From the IMG/VR virus record IMGVR_UViG_3300015371_000002, positions 60,251 to 124,250 of that record: 64,000 nucleotides of DNA, one strand, 5' to 3'. Positions within the stretch are counted from its first letter, which is position 1. Every line of letters begins with the position of its first letter. The position numbers and the translations under genes were made by a program. Shown here one piece after another: positions 5,625 through 64,000 of the stretch. The stretch comes from a virus. Below the pieces are notes generated by a model. It was not told the DNA's origin and searched no databases. It saw only the letters and a program-made list of their open reading frames with translations.

Positions 5625-7067
5625 TCAATCTGCTGCCGACAGAACGGCACCGCCTCCCAGCGCTTTGGTCAGATGCCACGCAGCCATGGCGATGTCGGCC
5701 TCATCGAGGTCGCGCTGCTGTGCGGCTGGGCTTCCCGGCGCGCCCGGTCCGGATGGCGGCGTAAGTGCGGGCTGAAGGGGGGCAGGCGTTGCCGGGGCTG
5801 ATTCTCGCTGCGTCAGAACGTCAATGGGCCAATACTGCTGCTGAAGGAATGGAACATCGCCACCTTTGACCGGACGCATGTCGAACCGTGCGCGCGCTTC
5901 GTTCGGCGAGAAGATCGCCCGCTGCACGCCTTCGCCGATGGTCTTGACCTTGGTGGCGGTGTCCATGCGCAGTAGGCCATCGTCGATGTCGAACTCGGTG
6001 CCGTAAATATGTCCGGTGACCTCGGTTAGACCGAGGCCCTCGTCCAACAGCAATTCGATGTTCTCAAAGCGTGCCTGCAAGCACTGGCTATAATACGACA
6101 GGTTCAGCGCTTCCACGTTGTTATACGTCGGTGCTGCTTGCGTCACGAGAAACGCGGGCACGTGGAATGCGGAGCAGATGGTCTCGGCGGTCCACCTCAG
6201 TTGCTCGATGAGTTGGGCATCGACCGGATTGATACTCATCCGCTCGAACTTCATCCCATCGCCGAGGATCGCCACCCGCCCGACGTTCTCGCCCGCGTAG
6301 TTCGCCTGCCATTTGGCTTTGACGCGATCGGCGGTTTCCTGCGAGATCGGCCCCGGCGCGATCAGCATGCCAGATGGCACCGCCTGATTGCGCGACGTCT
6401 CGATCTGCTGCTTCTGCGCCTCAAGCCCCTGGAGCGCCGACAGGCCACACGCAGTGAGCGGCGAAATACCGATCAGCGGATGGAACACCGCCGACATGCG
6501 GTCGTGGATGATTTCCGACGCGGGAACAACCTGGCTGTCTTCTTCGACGCCGGTCAAGCTGTCCGCGTAGAGTTGGTAATAGACCGCACCATCGGGTGCG
6601 ACCAGCACCTTGGTGCGTGCTGGGTCAAGCACATACATGGCAATGACCACGCCACGACCGTCGCGCTGCTTCAGTATATACGTATTCCCCCACGTAAGGA
6701 GGCTATAGATCCAGCACTCCAGGAATTGAATTCGCGTTTGGTAGCGATTTGGCTTGCGCAGCACCGGGCTGAACGCGGGCGCGGAAGTCTCTTCCCAGAT
6801 GCCGGTGGTCGGATCCTGCTCGACCAGTTTGATACGAATTTTGGATATGTCCTGGGCAATCAGCGAAAGGCACGAATAGACGGCGTGATGGCGCAGGGAG
6901 GTTTCCTGCGTCATGCCCATGTTGCGCTGCCAGGCGCCCATGAACGGTTCCTGGATAGTCGGCCAGAACCACTGGGAGAACGTCGACATCGGCGGCACCA
7001 TCAGGCCGGTGGGCGGTGATGCCTTGGCGATGCCGTTGCGCGTGATGTCGAACCCGAGGATACGCAT
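5625..7067 (-). CDS. phage portal protein, HK97 family
   Basis: AVYSCLSLIAQDIS, LRKPNRYQT, EIIHDR, GISPL, ICSAFHVP, SPNEARARFDMRPVKGGD; likely start MRILGF at 7067. Confidence 0.92.
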   Translation of the reverse strand: MRILGFDITRNGIAKASPPTGLMVPPMSTFSQWFWPTIQEPFMGAWQRNMGMTQETSLRHHAVYSCLSLIAQDISKIRIKLVEQDPTTGIWEETSAPAFSPVLRKPNRYQTRIQFLECWIYSLLTWGNTYILKQRDGRGVVIAMYVLDPARTKVLVAPDGAVYYQLYADSLTGVEEDSQVVPASEIIHDRMSAVFHPLIGISPLTACGLSALQGLEAQKQQIETSRNQAVPSGMLIAPGPISQETADRVKAKWQANYAGENVGRVAILGDGMKFERMSINPVDAQLIEQLRWTAETICSAFHVPAFLVTQAAPTYNNVEALNLSYYSQCLQARFENIELLLDEGLGLTEVTGHIYGTEFDIDDGLLRMDTATKVKTIGEGVQRAIFSPNEARARFDMRPVKGGDVPFLQQQYWPIDVLTQRESAPATPAPLQPALTPPSGPGAPGSPAAQQRDLDEADIAMAAWHLTKALGGGAVLSAAD

Positions 7068-58227: not shown

Positions 58228-58860
58228 CTCATCATGACCGTCGTGAGCGCACCCACGACATGCCGCGAATGTCGCGGATGGTTCTGGTGGCGCCCACGTG
58301 ACACGAATGCCACATGGACGTGCTGGGGCTGTTCCCCGCCGGACTACGGCTGGACCTGCGCCACGGTGGAGATAAGGAACGCGCGGCGCGACGTCTCGGC
58401 ATGAGTGACAGCCCTGTCCCACCGAAGCCCCTCATGGGGCCCGCGAAGGCCCGCGATATAGCGCGTGACTTCAAGGCATGGTCCGAACATCTGCACGAAC
58501 TTGGCCTGACCGCCGAGGCCAGCCGGGCAGAACGCGACAGTCAATGGTGGCTCATTTACAGCATAGCTCTGTCGCAGATCCCGCCCGGGCGCGTCGAAAC
58601 ATAATCCCACCACCTCCGCCGTTCATTACGTGTCAGTGCGCAACGGAATTGCTCCCTCCTGGAAACAGCGTTGCACGCCGCGTCGAAAGTGTTGACGCAA
58701 TTCGTCGATATATGGATGACTATATACTGTGCTGCCACACAGCATGACGCGTCGATGCGTTACCGTCCCATATGGTCTCTCTCAGGGTCGGTGATCTGCC
58801 TCGCGCGTCCCCTGTTTAATGCTCCGGGCTCGTGGGCCGGAACTTGAGGGAGAACGTCGC

Positions 58861-59721
58861 ATGGCAACGCGTCCTATTCGCCGTAATCAGCGCAAGCCGA
58901 ACCGTCCATCGCCCGACCGCCAAGAGCCAGAAGATGAAGTGCCAGTCACGCCAGAAATCGAAGAAGAGGCTCCGCTCGCACCAGCTTCGCTGACAGCGCT
59001 GCTGTCCACCGCTCCGGTCTATACTCAATTCGACATTTGGTTGGTGGGTGACACGCCGCTGATCTGCCACGCGTGGTCGCTCAAGGCGCGGCTAGAGATG
59101 CTTGCGACCCAGACCAAGGCCGTGCGAGACACCAAAGTTGCGCGTGATCCGCAGGCCGATTTCATCAGCTCGCTATACGAGATGTCGGAAGGCAGTGGAG
59201 AATACGGCTTTCCGCTGACCGGGATTAAGAACTGCATTCTGTCGATGGCGCATAAGGATCGCGGTGTTCCGCGAACCACAGTGCGTGCGTCACTGCAATT
59301 GCGCGGGAACATCGTTCGGGTGCGGCCAGCGTTAGCAGGTGCGATATGCGATATGCCGCTTTGCCGGATCTACGGCGGGAAGCCAGAGATGCGCGAGGAT
59401 ATGGTGCGGGTAGGAGCGGGGCTTCGTAAGAAAGCGACCCTTGCCTATCGTGCCCAATTTTGGCCCTGGGCTATCCGCATCGCGGGGCGGGTCAATACGC
59501 GGATGCTGCCCAGCGAGGCGTTGGTCTTTCTCGCTAGGGAAGGCGGCAGCGCTACTGGCATCGGCGAATGGCGCAACGAGAGGGATGGCATCTTTGGTGC
59601 CTTCCACCCGGCTCGCGTAAACGAGGCAGACGCATGGGGGAAATTTGCCAGTGGCAAGGGGCCGTTGCCACACGTCGAACCCTGGGTTGGGCTGGATTCT
59701 GACGAGAGCGAGGCGGCGTAA
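58861..59721 (+). CDS. stand-alone Cas7/RAMP-like RNA-binding protein
   Basis: IWLVGDTPLICH (RAMP first strand, cf. TPLHIG), YGFPLTGIKNCI (cf. IPGSSLKG), C-terminal Gly-rich loop GGSATGIGEWRNERDGIFGAF; GAGGGAG RBS before ATG 58861. Confidence 0.7.
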   Translation: MATRPIRRNQRKPNRPSPDRQEPEDEVPVTPEIEEEAPLAPASLTALLSTAPVYTQFDIWLVGDTPLICHAWSLKARLEMLATQTKAVRDTKVARDPQADFISSLYEMSEGSGEYGFPLTGIKNCILSMAHKDRGVPRTTVRASLQLRGNIVRVRPALAGAICDMPLCRIYGGKPEMREDMVRVGAGLRKKATLAYRAQFWPWAIRIAGRVNTRMLPSEALVFLAREGGSATGIGEWRNERDGIFGAFHPARVNEADAWGKFASGKGPLPHVEPWVGLDSDESEAA

Positions 59722-60225
59722 ATGGCAGAACAGTGGACGGTTCATCAAAATAGCGCACTGCGCAATGTCAAAAATCGCACTCAGCTTGACCCATCGCGCG
59801 TCGGTCCGGAACTGCAGCGGCACCCGACCAACGAAACGGCGCTGGAGGCAGCAAAATCCAACCGCAATCCGCTCCATCGGCATTTGGAGTGGGATGACGC
59901 TGTCTGTGGCGTCGCGCATCGTCTCGGACAGATCGCCGCGCTGCGATCATGCATCCGTCTATACGATGAGGAAACCGATGAGGTTCATCGCGCCTTCATC
60001 TCGTTGACTGACGATGAAGATCGCCACCGGGCGCGATATTACAGCCGCCAGCAGGTTCTCGACTCGATCGAGATTCAACGGCAGGTGCTACGAAAATGGA
60101 TCACCCGCTTCGAAGCGATTCAATCGGATCTGTCCGAAATGGAAGACCTGTGCCAAGCGGCGAAGGACTTTGGCCAACGACTAAGGGATCGGCTGCAATC
60201 GTTTGAAGCACGCCCATCGGAATGA
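59722..60225 (+). CDS. partner protein of the RAMP-like gene
   Basis: Starts on the base after the previous stop; LEAAK...NPLHRHLEWDD...HRL motif; C-terminal coiled coil. Confidence 0.75.
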   Translation: MAEQWTVHQNSALRNVKNRTQLDPSRVGPELQRHPTNETALEAAKSNRNPLHRHLEWDDAVCGVAHRLGQIAALRSCIRLYDEETDEVHRAFISLTDDEDRHRARYYSRQQVLDSIEIQRQVLRKWITRFEAIQSDLSEMEDLCQAAKDFGQRLRDRLQSFEARPSE

Positions 60226-60251
60226 TGGCAAGAAAAACCAACAAGATTTTT

Positions 60252-61116
60252 GGCGGGGGGCGGCTCTGCTCTCCCTGGCTTGGCGGGGCGCGACCCGTCT
60301 CGGCCGGCTTGTCCGGGAATGGCGCGTCAGAGGCTGGGCACGGCTCAGCACTGCTGTGCCAGGCAGGCACGGCGCGGCTCGGCGGGTCCCTGCAAAACAT
60401 GGCCTCTCTCAGCGTGGCGGGGCAGGTCTCGGCAGGCATGGCGCGGCATGGATTGCGTGGCTTGGCCCTGCAGTGCCCGGAATTGCTCGTCTTTGCACGG
60501 CCGACATGGCTAGGCTGGGCCGAGCATGGCTGGGCTGGCCCCGGCGTGGCTCGTCTCGGTGTGCAAGGCAGGCACGGCTCGGCGGTGCGGGACCCGTCTC
60601 GGCAATGCCAGGCAGGGCCGGGCTCGTCATACCAAGGCAGGCGCGGCGCGGCCAGGCTAGGATGGCGGTGCTCAGCATTGCTCGGCATGGCCCGGCATGG
60701 CTTGGCAGGCAGGCTCGGCAAGTCTCAGCGTGCCTCGGCCTGGCATGGCGCACGGCATTGCTCAGCTGGTCTTGGCAGGCATGTCAGGTATCGGCAAGTC
60801 CGGGCAAGGCACGTCACAGCGTGGCTTGGCAGGCAGAGCGCGGCTCGGCGCAACGTAGCTTGGCCCGCCATGGCAGGTCTCTGGCATGGCGTGGCGGGTC
60901 GAGGCAGGCACGGCGGGTCCAGGCAAATTCTGGCCAGGCTGAGCTCGGCCCGGCGGTGCACGACGTGGCAAGGCCGGAAAGGTTCGGCACGGCATGGAGT
61001 GGCTTGTCTGGGCACGTCATTACTGGGCGTCGCTGGGCATGACTTGGCAGGCACGGCTAGGCCTGTCACGGCAAGACTCAGCAAGGCCAGGCATGGCGAA
61101 GCGTGTCCCGGCTCGG
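60252..61116 (+). ncRNA. array of ~69-nt units made of GGC-NN pentamers (putative guide-RNA array)
   Basis: 4-nt phase breaks GGCA/GGCC at 60302, 60362, 60431, 60499, 60567, 60636, 60704, 60774, 60828, 60903, 60972, 61046; spacings 60,69,68,68,69,68,70,54,75,69,74; a typical unit is 4 + 13x5 nt. Confidence 0.8.
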
Positions 61117-61146
61117 GGCGGTTGGCAGCAATAGTTGCCAGCCGCC
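61117..61146 (+). terminator. hairpin closing the pentamer array
   Basis: GGCGGTTGGCAGC-AATA-GTTGCCAGCCGCC, 13-bp stem with two G-U pairs on the plus strand. Confidence 0.7.
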
Positions 61147-61160
61147 TCTGCTGTCATAAT

Positions 61161-61442
61161 TCAGTCCAGGTGATACACCCGACTGGCATCGTCCGCCGCG
61201 CGGTCCTTCATTAGCTCGATGCGCAGTTTGTCGCGATCGAACGGTGGCGCGTATTGGGCGATGGCGTCGATCAGTGGGTCTGGATTGTAGCGGAACTCGT
61301 TGGGCGAACTGCCGAGTGACAGCACCGGCCCTGCATCACCGTGCCTTTCCAATTCGACGACGCAGAAGAAAGTGCGCAGTGGCGGATCCCAGCCGATGAC
61401 CATGTAGTCGCCGCCATCAGGCTCGAGGTGGCATTTGCTCAT
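61161..61442 (-). CDS. hypothetical protein
   Basis: VIGWDPPLRTFF; overlaps the end of the RuvC-like gene. Confidence 0.6.
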   Translation of the reverse strand: MSKCHLEPDGGDYMVIGWDPPLRTFFCVVELERHGDAGPVLSLGSSPNEFRYNPDPLIDAIAQYAPPFDRDKLRIELMKDRAADDASRVYHLD

Positions 61443-61978
61443 GCTAAATCCCATCGGAACAACGGCTGCTTCGCCGACGGAATGCCGAGGATCTTCTGCC
61501 GGTAATCGTGCCAACAGATGATGGCATCCGCAGCGTTATGGTCGGTTACGTCAAGTTTCAGTTCCTGGCGGCAGAACTGCACCACGGCGGTCTTCGTCTC
61601 ACCCTTAACCCAACGGCAGCGGCCCATGACGTTGGTGCGGATGGTATCAACGTGAGCGCCATGGAACGCCACGTCATGACGGAAGCATGCTTCCCTGACG
61701 AAGCCGACGATGGCGTAGATCTGCATCATGGTGTCGACATTGGTGTTCGGCACGTTGGGCGGCAACGGGTTCTCGATCACCACGTCCGCAGGGTTCCACG
61801 CATCCATCGTGTCGTTGACCTTATCGACGAAAGCAGCGTAACGCGCGCCGACGCCGCCGATCTTCGGTAAGGTCCAGTGGCCGAATTCCGGCTGTTTCCG
61901 CCTGAGCGGTGCATAGGCCCAGCCGATGACGGTAGCGGACAGATCCAGCGCCAGCACACCGCCATCGGGCATGGTCAT
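61439..61978 (-). CDS. RuvC-like Holliday junction resolvase
   Basis: VLALDLS..IGWA, VVIENP, DHNAADAI. Confidence 0.8.
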   Translation of the reverse strand: MTMPDGGVLALDLSATVIGWAYAPLRRKQPEFGHWTLPKIGGVGARYAAFVDKVNDTMDAWNPADVVIENPLPPNVPNTNVDTMMQIYAIVGFVREACFRHDVAFHGAHVDTIRTNVMGRCRWVKGETKTAVVQFCRQELKLDVTDHNAADAIICWHDYRQKILGIPSAKQPLFRWDLA

Positions 61979-62600: not shown

Positions 62601-62912
62601 CTATTCGTCATCCTGTCTCAGCTTGTCTCGTAGGCGTGTTTCAAACAGCGCCCGGAGCTGTTTCTCCGTTAGCGCCACGTTGAGGATTTTCGCAGCTCGT
62701 CCGATTCGCTCGAACCATTCCGGTGGAATGCCGTCCCGCCGATGCCACGCCCGGGCGGTGCTGGCGGGCACACCGATTTCCCTGGCCAGCGCTGCCCGCC
62801 GGGGGAACAGATCAATCGCCTCTCTGTATGAATTCAATGACTTCGCCACCTTCTCTGCCCAGGTTCCCGTTCCGTTGCAATGTGCAACCCCCCTCGTTAG
62901 CGGGTCAACCAA
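62601..62912 (-). CDS. Cro-like HTH regulator
   Basis: AIDLFPRRAALAREIGVPASTARAWHRRDGIPPEWF; true start may be internal. Confidence 0.7.
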   Translation of the reverse strand: MVDPLTRGVAHCNGTGTWAEKVAKSLNSYREAIDLFPRRAALAREIGVPASTARAWHRRDGIPPEWFERIGRAAKILNVALTEKQLRALFETRLRDKLRQDDE

Positions 62913-62983
62913 TTACCGTATTGACACGACCGGGGGCGCCACATAAATGTTGTCAAACATATAACCATTCGGTGGGCGAGTTC

Positions 62984-63481
62984 ATGAGCGCTGCGACTGG
63001 CACCCGGAGATTTTCGCTACCCCAGATTGAGAACTTCATTATGGAGGCCCGTAGGCTGCGGTCGGAGTTCGCCGCGGAGGAAGACGAGACGCTCATCCAC
63101 GACACGCTGGAGGGGCAGACCAACCTCTATGAGGCGATCGACCAGATCGGCGAGGACCATCTCCGCGACAAGCTGCTAATCGAAGCAGCAGAGGCGCGGA
63201 TTAAGCGGCTGAAGCGGCGGGCCGATCGCCGCCAGGAATGGCTGGGCCGGAAGCTGGCCGACCTGGGCCTGAGCACATCACAGGAACGCCCGCTTTTCAC
63301 CCTCGGCCTGGAATGGAAGTCGCACGTGGTGGTGACCGACGAAAACGCCCTCGCCCCCCGATACGTCAGACACGCACCGGATAAGATCGTCATTGGCAAG
63401 GACCTGCGCGCTGGCACGTTCGTCGGCGAAGGCGCCGAACTGTCCAACCCGCAACCATCTGCCCGAATCTACAGGAAGTAG
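62984..63481 (+). CDS. siphovirus Gp157-family protein
   Basis: DTLEGQTNL...VVVTDENAL...PDKIVIGKDL...GAELSN. Confidence 0.8.
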   Translation: MSAATGTRRFSLPQIENFIMEARRLRSEFAAEEDETLIHDTLEGQTNLYEAIDQIGEDHLRDKLLIEAAEARIKRLKRRADRRQEWLGRKLADLGLSTSQERPLFTLGLEWKSHVVVTDENALAPRYVRHAPDKIVIGKDLRAGTFVGEGAELSNPQPSARIYRK

Positions 63482-63487
63482 AACGAA

Positions 63488-64000
63488 ATGAGCGCAGCAG
63501 CAGCAGCAGAGACTCAGCTCGCGACGATCTCCCAGAAGGACGAAGACCTGCTGATCGAGGCCATGCAGAACAGCCTCTACCCTGGGGCCAAGCGAGAAAG
63601 CGTCGCGCTGGTCCTGAGTTACTGTCGGGTCAACAAGCTCGATCCGATGACCAAGCCGGTGCACATCGTGCGGATGAAGGTAAAGACCGGCTATGACCCA
63701 GTAAAGCGCCAGAACATAGAAGAATGGCGCGATGTGCTGATGCCGGGCATCGGCGATTATCGCATCAAGGCGGCCCGTAGCGGTGAATATGGCGGTAAGA
63801 CGGAACCAGAATTTGGCCCCGTTATCAGAGAGAAGCTGGGCGGCACGGAGGTGTCATATCCACAGTGGTGTAGGATCACGGTGCATCGCATCGTGCAGGG
63901 GCAACCGAGGGCCTTCGCCGCCAAGGAATATTGGCTCGAGAACTACGCCAATGACGGCCACTCGGATAAGCCGAACTATATGTGGAAAAAGCGGGCATTC
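63488..64000 (+). CDS. bet: phage recombination protein Bet (RecT/Red-beta family), partial
   Basis: Hand-translated: NSLYPGA...YC...LDPMTKPVHIV...MPGIGDYRIKAARSGEYGG..EPEFGP...MWKKRAF; runs off the window. Confidence 0.85.
   Translation, partial: MSAAAAAETQLATISQKDEDLLIEAMQNSLYPGAKRESVALVLSYCRVNKLDPMTKPVHIVRMKVKTGYDPVKRQNIEEWRDVLMPGIGDYRIKAARSGEYGGKTEPEFGPVIREKLGGTEVSYPQWCRITVHRIVQGQPRAFAAKEYWLENYANDGHSDKPNYMWKKRAF

What the first reader, a model, noticed from the sequence alone, without database searches (positions are those of the whole stretch)
60252..61116. Two-level grammar of the array: about 13 pentamers per unit with information in positions 4-5
Seen: the unit at 60362 parses as GGCA GGCac GGCgc GGCtc GGCgg GTCcc TGCaa AACat GGCct CTCtc AGCgt GGCgg GGCag GTCtc, and the unit at 60903 as GGCA GGCac GGCgg GTCca GGCaa ATTct GGCca GGCtg AGCtc GGCcc GGCgg TGCac GACgt GGCaa. 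Position 3 is almost always C, positions 1-2 are mostly GG, and positions 4-5 differ in every unit. A 4-nt GGCA/GGCC break resets the phase 12 times, usually every 68-70 nt. Simple slippage would homogenise the units, so the NN strings (about 24-26 nt per unit) look like stored information. The first pentamer (GGCAY) may belong to the delimiter or processing site.
Basis: partly seen in the sequence, partly recalled or inferred. Interest (0 to 1): 0.9.

Follow-up and report, generated by a model that had tools for sequence, protein, structure and literature searches.

The report
Phage VIPR guide-RNA array, staggered type

Summary
Window 60252-61119 is a lattice of 157 five-base units (G .77, G .77, C .94, then two near-random letters) broken by 15 four-base units, 13 of them GGCA/GGCC, spaced mostly 66-75 nt.

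It is the vrRNA array of a VIPR system (bioRxiv 10.64898/2026.04.26.720920 and .720927). The gene two places upstream (58861-59721) is a Vipr RAMP protein. Its family profile matches Escherichia phage SUSP1 Vipr (hhalign 93.6%, E 2e-7) and only that chain in the PDB sequences (36pp_D, E 3e-7). The residues that read G-G-Y in SUSP1 are conserved, and the model looks like Cas7/Csm3.

The four-base break equals the "staggered, 1-nt overlapping" array of that paper's Fig. S18 legend.

In sister phages, three guides hit HNH, YqaJ and another gene of rival sisters under the 1-nt-skip rule only.

For this window's own guides I found no target and no RNA data.

This scan has already found VIPR arrays on other DNA. 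Verdict: a new member of a known kind.

The parts
58861..59721 (+). vipr: lone RAMP (Cas7-like) protein, about 286 aa. The longest ORF starts at 58819; ATG 58861 follows a GAGGGAG and fits the length of homologs.
   Evidence: At least 997 homologs and no Pfam family. AF2 model pLDDT 76. Every row Foldseek listed (ranks 1-50, gaps for near-duplicate chains) is a chain of a CRISPR effector complex. VIA wide: top Z 8.7 to Csm3; 48 of 50 rows are CRISPR RAMPs. hhalign to SUSP1 gp039: 93.6%, E 2.1e-7, 175 columns. The only PDB sequence hit is 36pp_D 'SUSP1 Vipr protein', E 3.3e-7. phrog_4652, unknown function.
59722..60225 (+). vap-like accessory gene, 167 aa. Its ATG directly follows the vipr stop.
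   Evidence: A homolog lies directly downstream of vipr in about 60 session loci. AF2 pLDDT 93: an N-terminal alpha/beta domain plus a 48-residue C-terminal helix. Only weak MarR/winged-helix rows, E >= 0.9. No similarity to SUSP1 gp038, which I presume to be vap1 (probability 0.2%). phrog_15946, unknown function.
60252..61119 (+). Staggered vrRNA array: 157 GGC-NN pentamers in about 13 phase blocks.
   Evidence: No period-3 signal: 0.27 against 3.4-7.6 in neighbouring genes. The body is no more structured than shuffles, z +0.16.
60362..60430 (+). Unit: GGCA break plus 13 pentamers.
60431..60498 (+). Unit with an internal GGAT break (3 + 9 pentamers).
60499..60566 (+). Unit opened by GGCC: 11 pentamers, a GGTG break, then 1 pentamer.
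60567..60635 (+). Unit: GGCA plus 13 pentamers.
60636..60707 (+). Unit with an internal GGAT break (4 + 8 pentamers), ending in a doubled GGCA.
60708..60773 (+). Unit with an internal 7-nt irregularity (7 + 4 pentamers).
60774..60827 (+). Unit: GGCA plus 10 pentamers.
60828..60902 (+). Unit with an internal 6-nt irregularity (9 + 4 pentamers).
60903..60971 (+).
60972..61045 (+). Unit: GGCC plus 14 pentamers.
61046..61119 (+). Last unit: GGCA plus 14 pentamers, running into the hairpin.
61115..61148 (+). 15-bp hairpin closing the array, 13 nt before the stop of the convergent gene 61161-61514(-). No T-run follows it.
   Evidence: dG -35.4 kcal/mol, z -6.5, 0 of 200 shuffles as stable. Relatives L130, L127 and L124 have a strong hairpin in the same place. 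It was not called as an intrinsic terminator.

Best explanation
The tract is the guide-RNA (vrRNA) array of a phage VIPR system.

Shown here:
- A Vipr-family RAMP gene and an accessory gene sit directly upstream on the same strand.
- The array has the GGY/NN pentamer grammar.
- It is cut into blocks of about 10-14 pentamers by one-base phase slips (GGCA|GGC, i.e. two pentamers sharing a G).

Inferred from the two preprints on the SUSP1 system:
- The array is transcribed with or after vipr-vap.
- One Vipr protomer clamps each GGC, through the residues equivalent to SUSP1 H17, R138 and D177-W178-R179 (here H84, R211 and E250-W251-R252).
- The filament presents the NN pairs, which pair with double-stranded DNA reading two bases and skipping one.
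- Binding silences genes of competing phages.

Inferred from sister phages:
- Each in-phase block acts as one guide.
- Typical targets are conserved coding motifs of genes in closely related rival phages.

The targets of this window's guides, and how the staggered transcript is divided, are unknown.
For: Protein:
- hhalign of the family alignment against SUSP1 gp039: probability 93.6%, E 2.1e-7, 175 columns. H84, R211 and E250-W251-R252 sit on SUSP1's GGY-reading residues (residue roles), and they are invariant or nearly so in 30 homologs.
- The profile's only PDB sequence hit at E <= 1 is 36pp_D 'SUSP1 Vipr protein'.
- Fold searches return CRISPR RAMPs.

Context:
- 121 loci (120 fetched from IMG/VR by a pure DNA pattern, 8 x GGCNN, plus the Quico locus found by blastn) were searched for Vipr. 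57 encode a Vipr-like ORF.
- In 57 of those 57 the nearest array is on the gene's strand, with a median gap of 23 nt.
- Conversely, 13 of 16 loci fetched by the protein have a period-5 tract beside it.
- SUSP1 gp039 itself is flanked by GGT-NN repeats.

Grammar:
-. The same GGCA or GGCT breaks at 4+5k spacing occur in relatives.
- The Fig. S18 legend of the first preprint describes exactly this.

Information reading, in 65 related records (744,856 nt, arrays masked, 191 guides):
- At a 1-nt skip, 4 guides (3 distinct) reach local scores of 19-23.
- The maximum is 14 at skip 0 and 15 at skip 2.
- 955 shuffled guides at skip 1 reach at most 16.
- The three targets lie in an HNH gene, a YqaJ gene (Pfam) and a 194-aa ORF. 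In each the skipped base is at codon position 3.

Other points:
- No self-target in the 124-kb genome, as the paper reports for its systems.
- Sister arrays share 2-4 of their 10-13 guides and differ in the rest.
Against: - No target was found for any guide of this window. Own genome: chance level at skips 0-3. 745 kb of relatives: local scores 10-13. Five exact 8-dinucleotide seed scans of IMG/VR gave 121 seed hits whose extension was at chance; the best was 22 of 26, a level that my own estimate (not a tool result) puts at tens of chance hits per guide in a collection of that size.
- There is no evidence of transcription or of unit-length RNAs. No RNA run holds the locus.
- Only 85 of 157 units are exact GGC, and several units carry extra internal breaks, so part of the array may be decayed.
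- Only one of the three sister-phage hits comes from a block inside a staggered array; the other two are solitary vrRNAs.
- The accessory protein is unrelated to SUSP1 gp038.
- No per-unit 3' tail exists, so the experimentally studied type II architecture is not met.
- A full-length open frame whose ATG overlaps the vap stop occurs in only 3.2% of NN permutations and is unexplained.
Confidence: 0.9

Rival explanations
1. The tract is a VIPR array, but a largely decayed, non-functional one. The many degenerate GGC units and extra internal phase breaks mean that few or none of its blocks still guide anything.
For: Exact GGC occurs in only 85 of 157 units, and 5 of the 11 units after 60362 carry an internal irregular break. 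No target was found for any block. None of its 9 long blocks is shared with a relative.
Against: Position 3 is C in 94% of units, and the lattice is kept over 868 nt. The vipr and vap genes are intact, with conserved RNA-reading residues. The first preprint notes frequent internal degeneracy of working vrRNAs. My target search was insensitive: exact seeds and small local databases.
Confidence: 0.12
2. The tract is a protein-coding gene: ORF 60222-61214, 330 aa, a Gly/Ala/Arg/Trp-rich pentapeptide-like repeat protein, translationally coupled to the upstream gene.
For: The ORF's ATG overlaps the upstream TGA. One + frame is open over the whole array, which happens in 3.2% of NN permutations. Equivalent tracts in Mycobacterium phage records are annotated as hypothetical proteins.
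Against: Period-3 power is 0.27, against 3.4-7.6 in neighbouring genes, and there is no lag-15 excess over lags 5 and 10. The conserved letters follow a 5-nt lattice, not a codon lattice, and all three + frames read the same kind of repeat. Unit lengths of 4+5k in the window and its relatives are mostly not multiples of 3. The lattice can form almost no stop codons, so open frames are expected.
Confidence: 0.03
3. The tract acts as double-stranded DNA: an array of binding sites (origin iterons, partition centromere or packaging site) for an oligomeric DNA-binding protein. No RNA is involved.
For: It is a non-coding repeat tract between convergent genes, close to recombination genes (RecT, RuvC-like). 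This was my first guess, recorded.
Against: The strand of the G-rich lattice always follows the Vipr gene (57 of 57). The neighbouring protein is a RAMP with conserved RNA-reading residues. Variable NN strings in sister phages match foreign coding sequences under a skip-1 code, which iterons would not do.
Confidence: 0.03

Closest known systems
VIPR systems (Vipr + vap + vrRNA), 'staggered vrRNA array' architecture. Source: bioRxiv 10.64898/2026.04.26.720920. I read the Results, methods sections 18, 20, 26 and 27, and the figure legends, including Fig. S18.
   Same: - A lone minimal RAMP gene, an accessory gene and GGY/NN pentamer guides within the published 9-16 repeat range, in a phage.
- Successive guides overlap by one base, so the lattice slips by one.
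- There is no self-targeting.
- Sister phages target rival phages under the 1-nt skip rule, with the skipped base at codon wobble positions.
   Different: - The paper confirmed hammerhead-interspersed and single-vrRNA architectures by sRNA-seq, but not staggered arrays.
- No target is known for this array.
Type II VIPR of Escherichia phage SUSP1 (NC_028808 gp039/gp038; PDB 36pp). Structure preprint: bioRxiv 10.64898/2026.04.26.720927, abstract and sections 5-6 read.
   Same: - Homologous Vipr (hhalign 93.6%, E 2e-7).
- The same G1/G2/Y3-reading residues.
- The array is on the gene's strand.
- One accessory gene follows vipr.
   Different: - SUSP1 has four separate ~100-nt vrRNAs with GGT units, each with a conserved 3' pseudoknot tail. 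Here about 13 GGC blocks abut without tails, and a single hairpin closes the whole array.
- The accessory proteins are unrelated.
- This Vipr carries an extra N-terminal stretch of about 55 residues, modelled with low confidence.
Class 1 CRISPR-Cas effector backbones (Cas7/Csm3/Cmr4 on crRNA).
   Same: - RAMP fold. The best structural matches are Csm3, Cmr4/6, type VII Cas7 and Cas7-11.
- One protomer per fixed RNA step, with a thumb that interrupts pairing periodically.
   Different: - No CRISPR repeats, no spacers and no other cas genes.
- The step is 5 nt with only 2 pairing bases, not 6 with 5.
- Guides are hard-wired, and no acquisition machinery is known.
Cluster F-type Mycobacterium phages (Quico, Florinda, Saal and others) and Gordonia phages (UmaThurman, Pipp, Ecliptus, ODay).
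   Same: - A Vipr homolog (for example Quico gp57; HMM E 7.5e-26) lies next to a GGCNN array with the same GGCAGGC breaks.
   Different: - The array lies upstream of vipr there.
- It is about 250 nt long, with irregular break spacing (77, 45, 63 and 34, by my own reading of the sequence).
- The hosts are actinobacterial.
- The records annotate these features as hypothetical proteins or not at all.

Membership tests
VIPR system | A Vipr protein (minimal RAMP homologous to SUSP1 Vipr) encoded at the locus. | tested here: met
   hhalign A1 against SUSP1 gp039: 93.6%, E 2.1e-7, 175 columns. The profile's only PDB hit is 36pp_D 'SUSP1 Vipr protein', E 3.3e-7. RAMP fold: VIA Z 8.7 to Csm3, 48 of 50 rows CRISPR RAMPs; Foldseek's 7 hits at E <= 0.001 are all CRISPR RAMPs.
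VIPR system | Residues that read G1, G2 and Y3 of each repeat (SUSP1 H17, R138, D177, W178, R179). | tested here: met
   They align to H84, R211, E250, W251 and R252. R211, W251 and R252 are invariant, and H84 and E250 at least 90% conserved, in 30 homologs. Residue roles were taken from the structure preprint.
VIPR system | vrRNA of tandem GGY/NN (YNNGG) pentamers, 9-16 per guide, with hypervariable NN. | tested here: met
   157 pentamers; C at position 3 in 94%; 0.06 and 0.09 bits at positions 4-5; main blocks of 9-14 pentamers.
VIPR system | Array adjacent to vipr and on its strand. | tested here: met
   In the window the array starts 27 nt after vap. 57 of 57 loci from the pattern search set have the array on the same strand. 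13 of 16 protein-found loci have an array.
VIPR system | vap accessory gene. | tested here: inconclusive
   A conserved 167-aa gene always follows vipr in this clade. It is unrelated to SUSP1 gp038, and its fold gives only weak winged-helix rows. Which of vap1-6 it is, if any, could not be checked because the supplements were closed.
VIPR system | NN strings match DNA targets under the 1-nt skip rule, with no self-target. | tested here: inconclusive
   Window guides: no target found and no self-target. Sister phages of the same Vipr clade: 3 distinct guides at 21/22, 21/22 and 26/28, only at skip 1, above all 955 shuffles.
VIPR system | vrRNAs expressed and bound by Vipr. | not testable with these tools
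   No RNA run holds the locus. This needs wet-lab work.
Type II VIPR (SUSP1-like) | Each vrRNA followed by a conserved structured 3' tail (pseudoknot). | tested here: not met
   Blocks abut directly at GGCA|GGC. The array body is no more structured than shuffles (z +0.16). Only one hairpin is present, at the array end.
Staggered vrRNA array (Fig. S18 of the first preprint) | Successive vrRNAs overlap by 1 nt, so the end of one marks the start of the next. | tested here: met
   There are 13 GGCA/GGCC four-base steps, equal to two pentamers sharing one base. The definition comes from the legend text only; I could not see the figure.
CRISPR-Cas | Identical direct repeats separated by unique spacers, with cas genes. 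| tested here: not met
   Tandem and direct-repeat analysis finds only the degenerate 5-nt lattice. No Rfam family is matched. Apart from the RAMP-fold gene, the neighbouring genes checked with Pfam or PHROGs match no Cas family.

The most novel reading that the evidence does not exclude
In staggered arrays the one-base slip is itself the ruler. One long tail-less transcript is not cut by a dedicated nuclease. Instead it is partitioned because a Vipr filament locked to the 5-nt lattice cannot continue across a 4-nt step. A single RNA would then carry about 13 independent guide filaments ('beads on a string'), each aimed at a conserved coding motif of a sister phage, and the single conserved terminal hairpin caps the whole string. 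This assembly and processing logic would differ from the tailed type II vrRNAs studied so far.
Probability: 0.2. Interest if true: 0.6.

Novelty: new member of a known kind. Interest (0 to 1): 0.4.

Why it matters
So the scan's pentamer-lattice signal is a reliable flag for VIPR loci.

Beyond filing it, three points may help people working on VIPR:

1. The staggered, tail-less architecture is the one array type the first preprint did not confirm by RNA sequencing. Here it has computational support for guide function in this clade: skip-1 hits on HNH, YqaJ and a third gene of sister phages.
2. In those sisters the targets are conserved genes flanking the rival's own VIPR locus. This fits inter-phage warfare among near kin.
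3. Homologous systems sit unannotated in cultured Mycobacterium and Gordonia phages, which are tractable hosts for testing staggered arrays.

For this window itself the targets remain unknown.

Tried and rejected
First guesses that I dropped:
- A ring-protein binding site (TRAP-like RNA, TerS/pac, partition centromere or origin iterons; recorded). Dropped once the protein link appeared.
- Homology between the window's upstream genes and Quico gp55/gp56. None was found; the homolog is gp57, downstream of Quico's array.

Searches that gave nothing useful:
- Rfam at E <= 1: only a chance snoRNA row.
- Sigma-70 promoters: 0 found. Terminator-like sites: 2 found against 2.0 expected, neither at the array.
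- Target search for the window's guides: own genome; 139 session loci (best 18/20 for block 60252 in L054 against a shuffle maximum of 17, not followed further); five IMG/VR seed scans (extensions).
- The best hit, L207 at 22/26, lies in a 152-aa ORF with the skip at wobble, but it is within chance expectation.
- 745 kb of relatives: nothing.
- I did not scan IMG/VR with mismatches, did not scan bacterial genomes, and tried only 5 of about 13 blocks there. Absence of a target is therefore weak.

Skip-3 scores of 22 and 21: one is an orthologous vrRNA that escaped my mask (L308:266). The other my script placed beyond the end of L306, so I do not interpret it. One shuffled guide scored 19 at skip 0.

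Relatives and host:
- Genome contigs: 2 loci only (an Alphaproteobacteria MAG at 41% and an Anaerotruncus MAG at 37%).
- Metagenome scan: 56 loci, none above about 68% identity. So unit turnover could be judged only among sister phages, not against this array.
- TerL's nearest relatives are Roseibium, Agrobacterium and Bradyrhizobium phages at 43-46%. The host is not established.

RNA and reads:
- No RNA holder is listed.
- Laid DNA contigs are short and low-depth. They stop at the array edge, and one 192-nt contig carries different pentamers beside a 41-nt match. This is too thin to use.

vap fold: Foldseek rows have E >= 0.9. VIA matched only the long helix, Z 5.8.

Supplements of all three preprints were closed. 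The lists of systems, types and vap families may already include this clade and the actinophage systems.

The third preprint (10.64898/2026.10.15.759431) was seen only as a search listing plus passages for six terms. It holds no 'staggered' and no 'Mycobacteri'.
Full report
WHAT IS THERE

The window is the last 64 kb of a 124,250-base IMG/VR virus record. Between the stop of a + strand gene (60225) and the stop of a convergent - strand gene (61161) lies about 900 nt that is G-rich on the + strand: G 353 and C 265 over 60231-61130.

Base identity peaks at lags 5, 10 and 15 (0.475, 0.467, 0.419) against 0.20-0.27 at lags 1-3 and 6-8. A growing shoulder at lags 4, 9, 14 and onward shows one-base phase slips. 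Period-5 power is 3.1-8.8 here against a window median of 0.66. No other such tract exists in the whole record.

For 60252-61119 it gives 157 pentamers and 19 irregular units, 15 of them of 4 nt. The score is 191 against 25.5 +/- 5.3 for shuffles.

- Position 3 is C in 148 of 157 units, and positions 1 and 2 are G in 77% each.
- Positions 4-5 carry 0.06 and 0.09 bits and use all 16 dinucleotides.
- There are 13 GGCA/GGCC breaks, spaced 60, 69, 68, 68, 69, 68, 4, 66, 54, 75, 69 and 74 nt.

So the two-level grammar is real. The 68-70 nt regularity holds for about half of the intervals, and several units have a further internal slip.

IT IS NOT A GENE

A 330-aa ORF spans the tract and its ATG overlaps the upstream TGA. 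Three things argue against coding:

- Period-3 power is 0.27 against 3.4-7.6 in neighbouring genes.
- The conserved letters follow a 5-nt lattice.
- Unit lengths of 4+5k are mostly not multiples of three.

The lattice can hardly form stop codons. One oddity remains: a frame open over the whole tract arises in only 3.2% of NN permutations.

HOW I GOT TO THE ANSWER

A blastn search of the region hit 20 Mycobacterium phage records. In phage Quico the hit is an intergenic tract of about 250 nt made of the same GGCNN pentamers with the same GGCAGGC slips.

Many of them have GGCA slips at 4+5k spacing.

[quoted passage not shown] I read its Results, four methods sections and the figure legends. It defines VIPR systems as follows:

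- A minimal RAMP protein (Vipr), an accessory gene (vap), and vrRNAs of 9-16 YNNGG repeats.
- The NN dinucleotides pair with double-stranded DNA while one target base is skipped.
- The systems are used by phages against competing elements.

Its Fig. [quoted passage not shown] That is the GGCA|GGC step: two pentamers sharing a G. The paper states that the hammerhead-interspersed and single-vrRNA architectures were confirmed by sRNA-seq; staggered arrays are not in that list.

MEMBERSHIP, TESTED

The 300-aa ORF at 58819-59721 (probable start 58861) has at least 997 homologs and no Pfam family.

- Its AlphaFold model (pLDDT 76) finds only CRISPR RAMPs with Foldseek: 7 hits at E <= 0.001, and every listed row is a chain of a CRISPR effector complex.
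- The Foldseek-independent search gives a top Z of 8.7 (rmsd 4.6, 151 aligned residues) to Csm3, and 48 of 50 rows are CRISPR RAMPs.
- I fetched Escherichia phage SUSP1. Its gp039 (195 aa) is flanked by two long intergenic tracts. The one I read, downstream of gp038, consists of GGT-NN repeats.
- My 30-sequence alignment matches gp039 with hhalign probability 93.6%, E 2.1e-7, over 175 columns.
- Against all PDB chain sequences the profile hits one thing only: 36pp_D, 'SUSP1 Vipr protein', E 3.3e-7.

The structure preprint (abstract and sections 5-6 read) says G1 is read by H17 and D177, G2 by R138 and W178, and Y3 by a pocket that includes R179. These residues align to H84, R211, E250, W251 and R252 here, all invariant or at least 90% conserved in the family.

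CONTEXT

The protein and the array find each other from both directions.

- 121 loci were searched for Vipr: 120 fetched by the DNA pattern plus the Quico locus found by blastn. 29 encode a tblastn-detectable homolog and 57 an HMM-detectable one.
- In 57 of those 57 the nearest array is on the gene's strand. It is downstream in 41 and upstream in 16, with a median gap of 23 nt.
- Of 16 loci fetched by the protein, 13 have a period-5 tract beside the gene.
- In the widened set, 55 of 65 records have one.

The 167-aa gene between vipr and the array recurs directly after vipr in about 60 loci. Its model (pLDDT 93) is an alpha/beta domain plus a 48-residue helix. Fold searches give only weak winged-helix rows and coiled-coil matches. 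It is unrelated to SUSP1 gp038.

A 15-bp hairpin (61115-61148, -35.4 kcal/mol, z -6.5) closes the array. Relatives L130, L127 and L124 have one in the same place. The array body is no more structured than shuffles.

IS THE NN STRING INFORMATION?

For this window I could not show it.

- No block matches its own genome above shuffles at skips 0-3.
- Five IMG/VR scans used exact 8-dinucleotide, 1-nt-skip seeds and gave 50, 16, 3, 33 and 19 seed hits. Their remaining positions matched at chance. The best total, 22 of 26 in L207, is a level that I estimate arises tens of times by chance in a collection of that size.

I then took the nearest relatives: ten whole virus contigs plus 54 metagenome loci, 744,856 nt together with the own genome, arrays masked. 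I scored all 191 in-phase blocks of 8 or more pentamers by ungapped local matching.

- At skip 1, four blocks (three distinct; one record is a duplicate) score 19-23.
- At skip 0 the maximum is 14, and at skip 2 it is 15.
- At skip 3 the only high scores are array-to-array artefacts.
- 955 shuffled blocks at skip 1 reach at most 16. On the smaller set, 268 shuffles per skip gave one 19 at skip 0 and otherwise at most 16.

The three hits are:

- A solitary vrRNA of G005 on the HNH motif DFEIDHCVPEG of G009, 21/22.
- The vrRNA upstream of vipr in G008 on a YqaJ gene of L311 (26/28) and of G006 (25/28).
- The last block of G008's staggered array on a 194-aa ORF of G006, 21/22, covering the whole block.

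The HNH and YqaJ identities are by Pfam. In all three the skipped base is codon position 3. The target genes flank the VIPR locus of the sister phages, and each phage holds its own allele at 61-84% amino-acid identity.

Sister arrays share 2-4 of their 10-13 blocks at >= 80% NN identity and differ in the rest. The window shares none of its 9. The window's own blocks score 10-13 at every skip in this set.

VERDICT

The tract is a VIPR vrRNA array of the staggered kind, beside an intact vipr and an accessory gene.

- What is shown is family membership and grammar.
- What is inferred is transcription, filament assembly and DNA silencing.
- The targets of this particular array remain unknown.

The class, its code and the staggered layout are in 2026 preprints, and this scan has filed VIPR arrays on other DNA several times. 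It is therefore a new member of a known kind.

The limits of my claim about print are these. Supplements were closed. 'Mycobacteri' does not occur in the main text of the first or third preprint, which is all I can say about the actinophage systems.

Noticed in passing
L002 (Mycobacterium phage Quico) 2480-2745 and 2756-3463; phage records: 27 Mycobacterium phage records (Quico, Florinda, Saal, Donkeykong, Brocalys and others) and 5 Gordonia phage records (UmaThurman in two records, Pipp, Ecliptus, ODay) encode a Vipr homolog. The Mycobacterium records and Gordonia phage Pipp also show a GGCNN array beside it. The records call both features 'hypothetical protein' or leave them unannotated, and the array itself is often annotated as a CDS. 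These are cultured phages of tractable hosts.
   Followed up: partly
G009 (L131) 6337-6368; G006 (L279) 51-82 and 2871-2911; L311 around 935: [quoted passage not shown]
   Followed up: yes
window 60222-61214 (+): The ATG of a frame that stays open across the whole array overlaps the vap stop codon (ATGA). Only 3.2% of NN permutations leave a full-length open frame, yet there is no period-3 signal. Unexplained.
   Followed up: partly
G005, G006, G008, G009: Sister phages carry several further short period-5 segments scattered over the genome, away from vipr; these look like solitary vrRNAs. The window's genome has only the one array.
   Followed up: partly
window 59879-60222, runs X2 and X3: A co-occurring strain has a vap 3' half about 14% diverged (44-48 differences in about 310-345 nt). 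Its contigs end exactly at the array start, and one 192-nt contig shows different pentamers beside a 41-nt match. This hints at array variants in the same habitat.
   Followed up: no
window 61439-61978 (-), 62723-63481 (+), 63488-64000 (+): The array borders a recombination module: a RuvC-like resolvase (phrog_159), a Sipho_Gp157-like protein and RecT.
   Followed up: no
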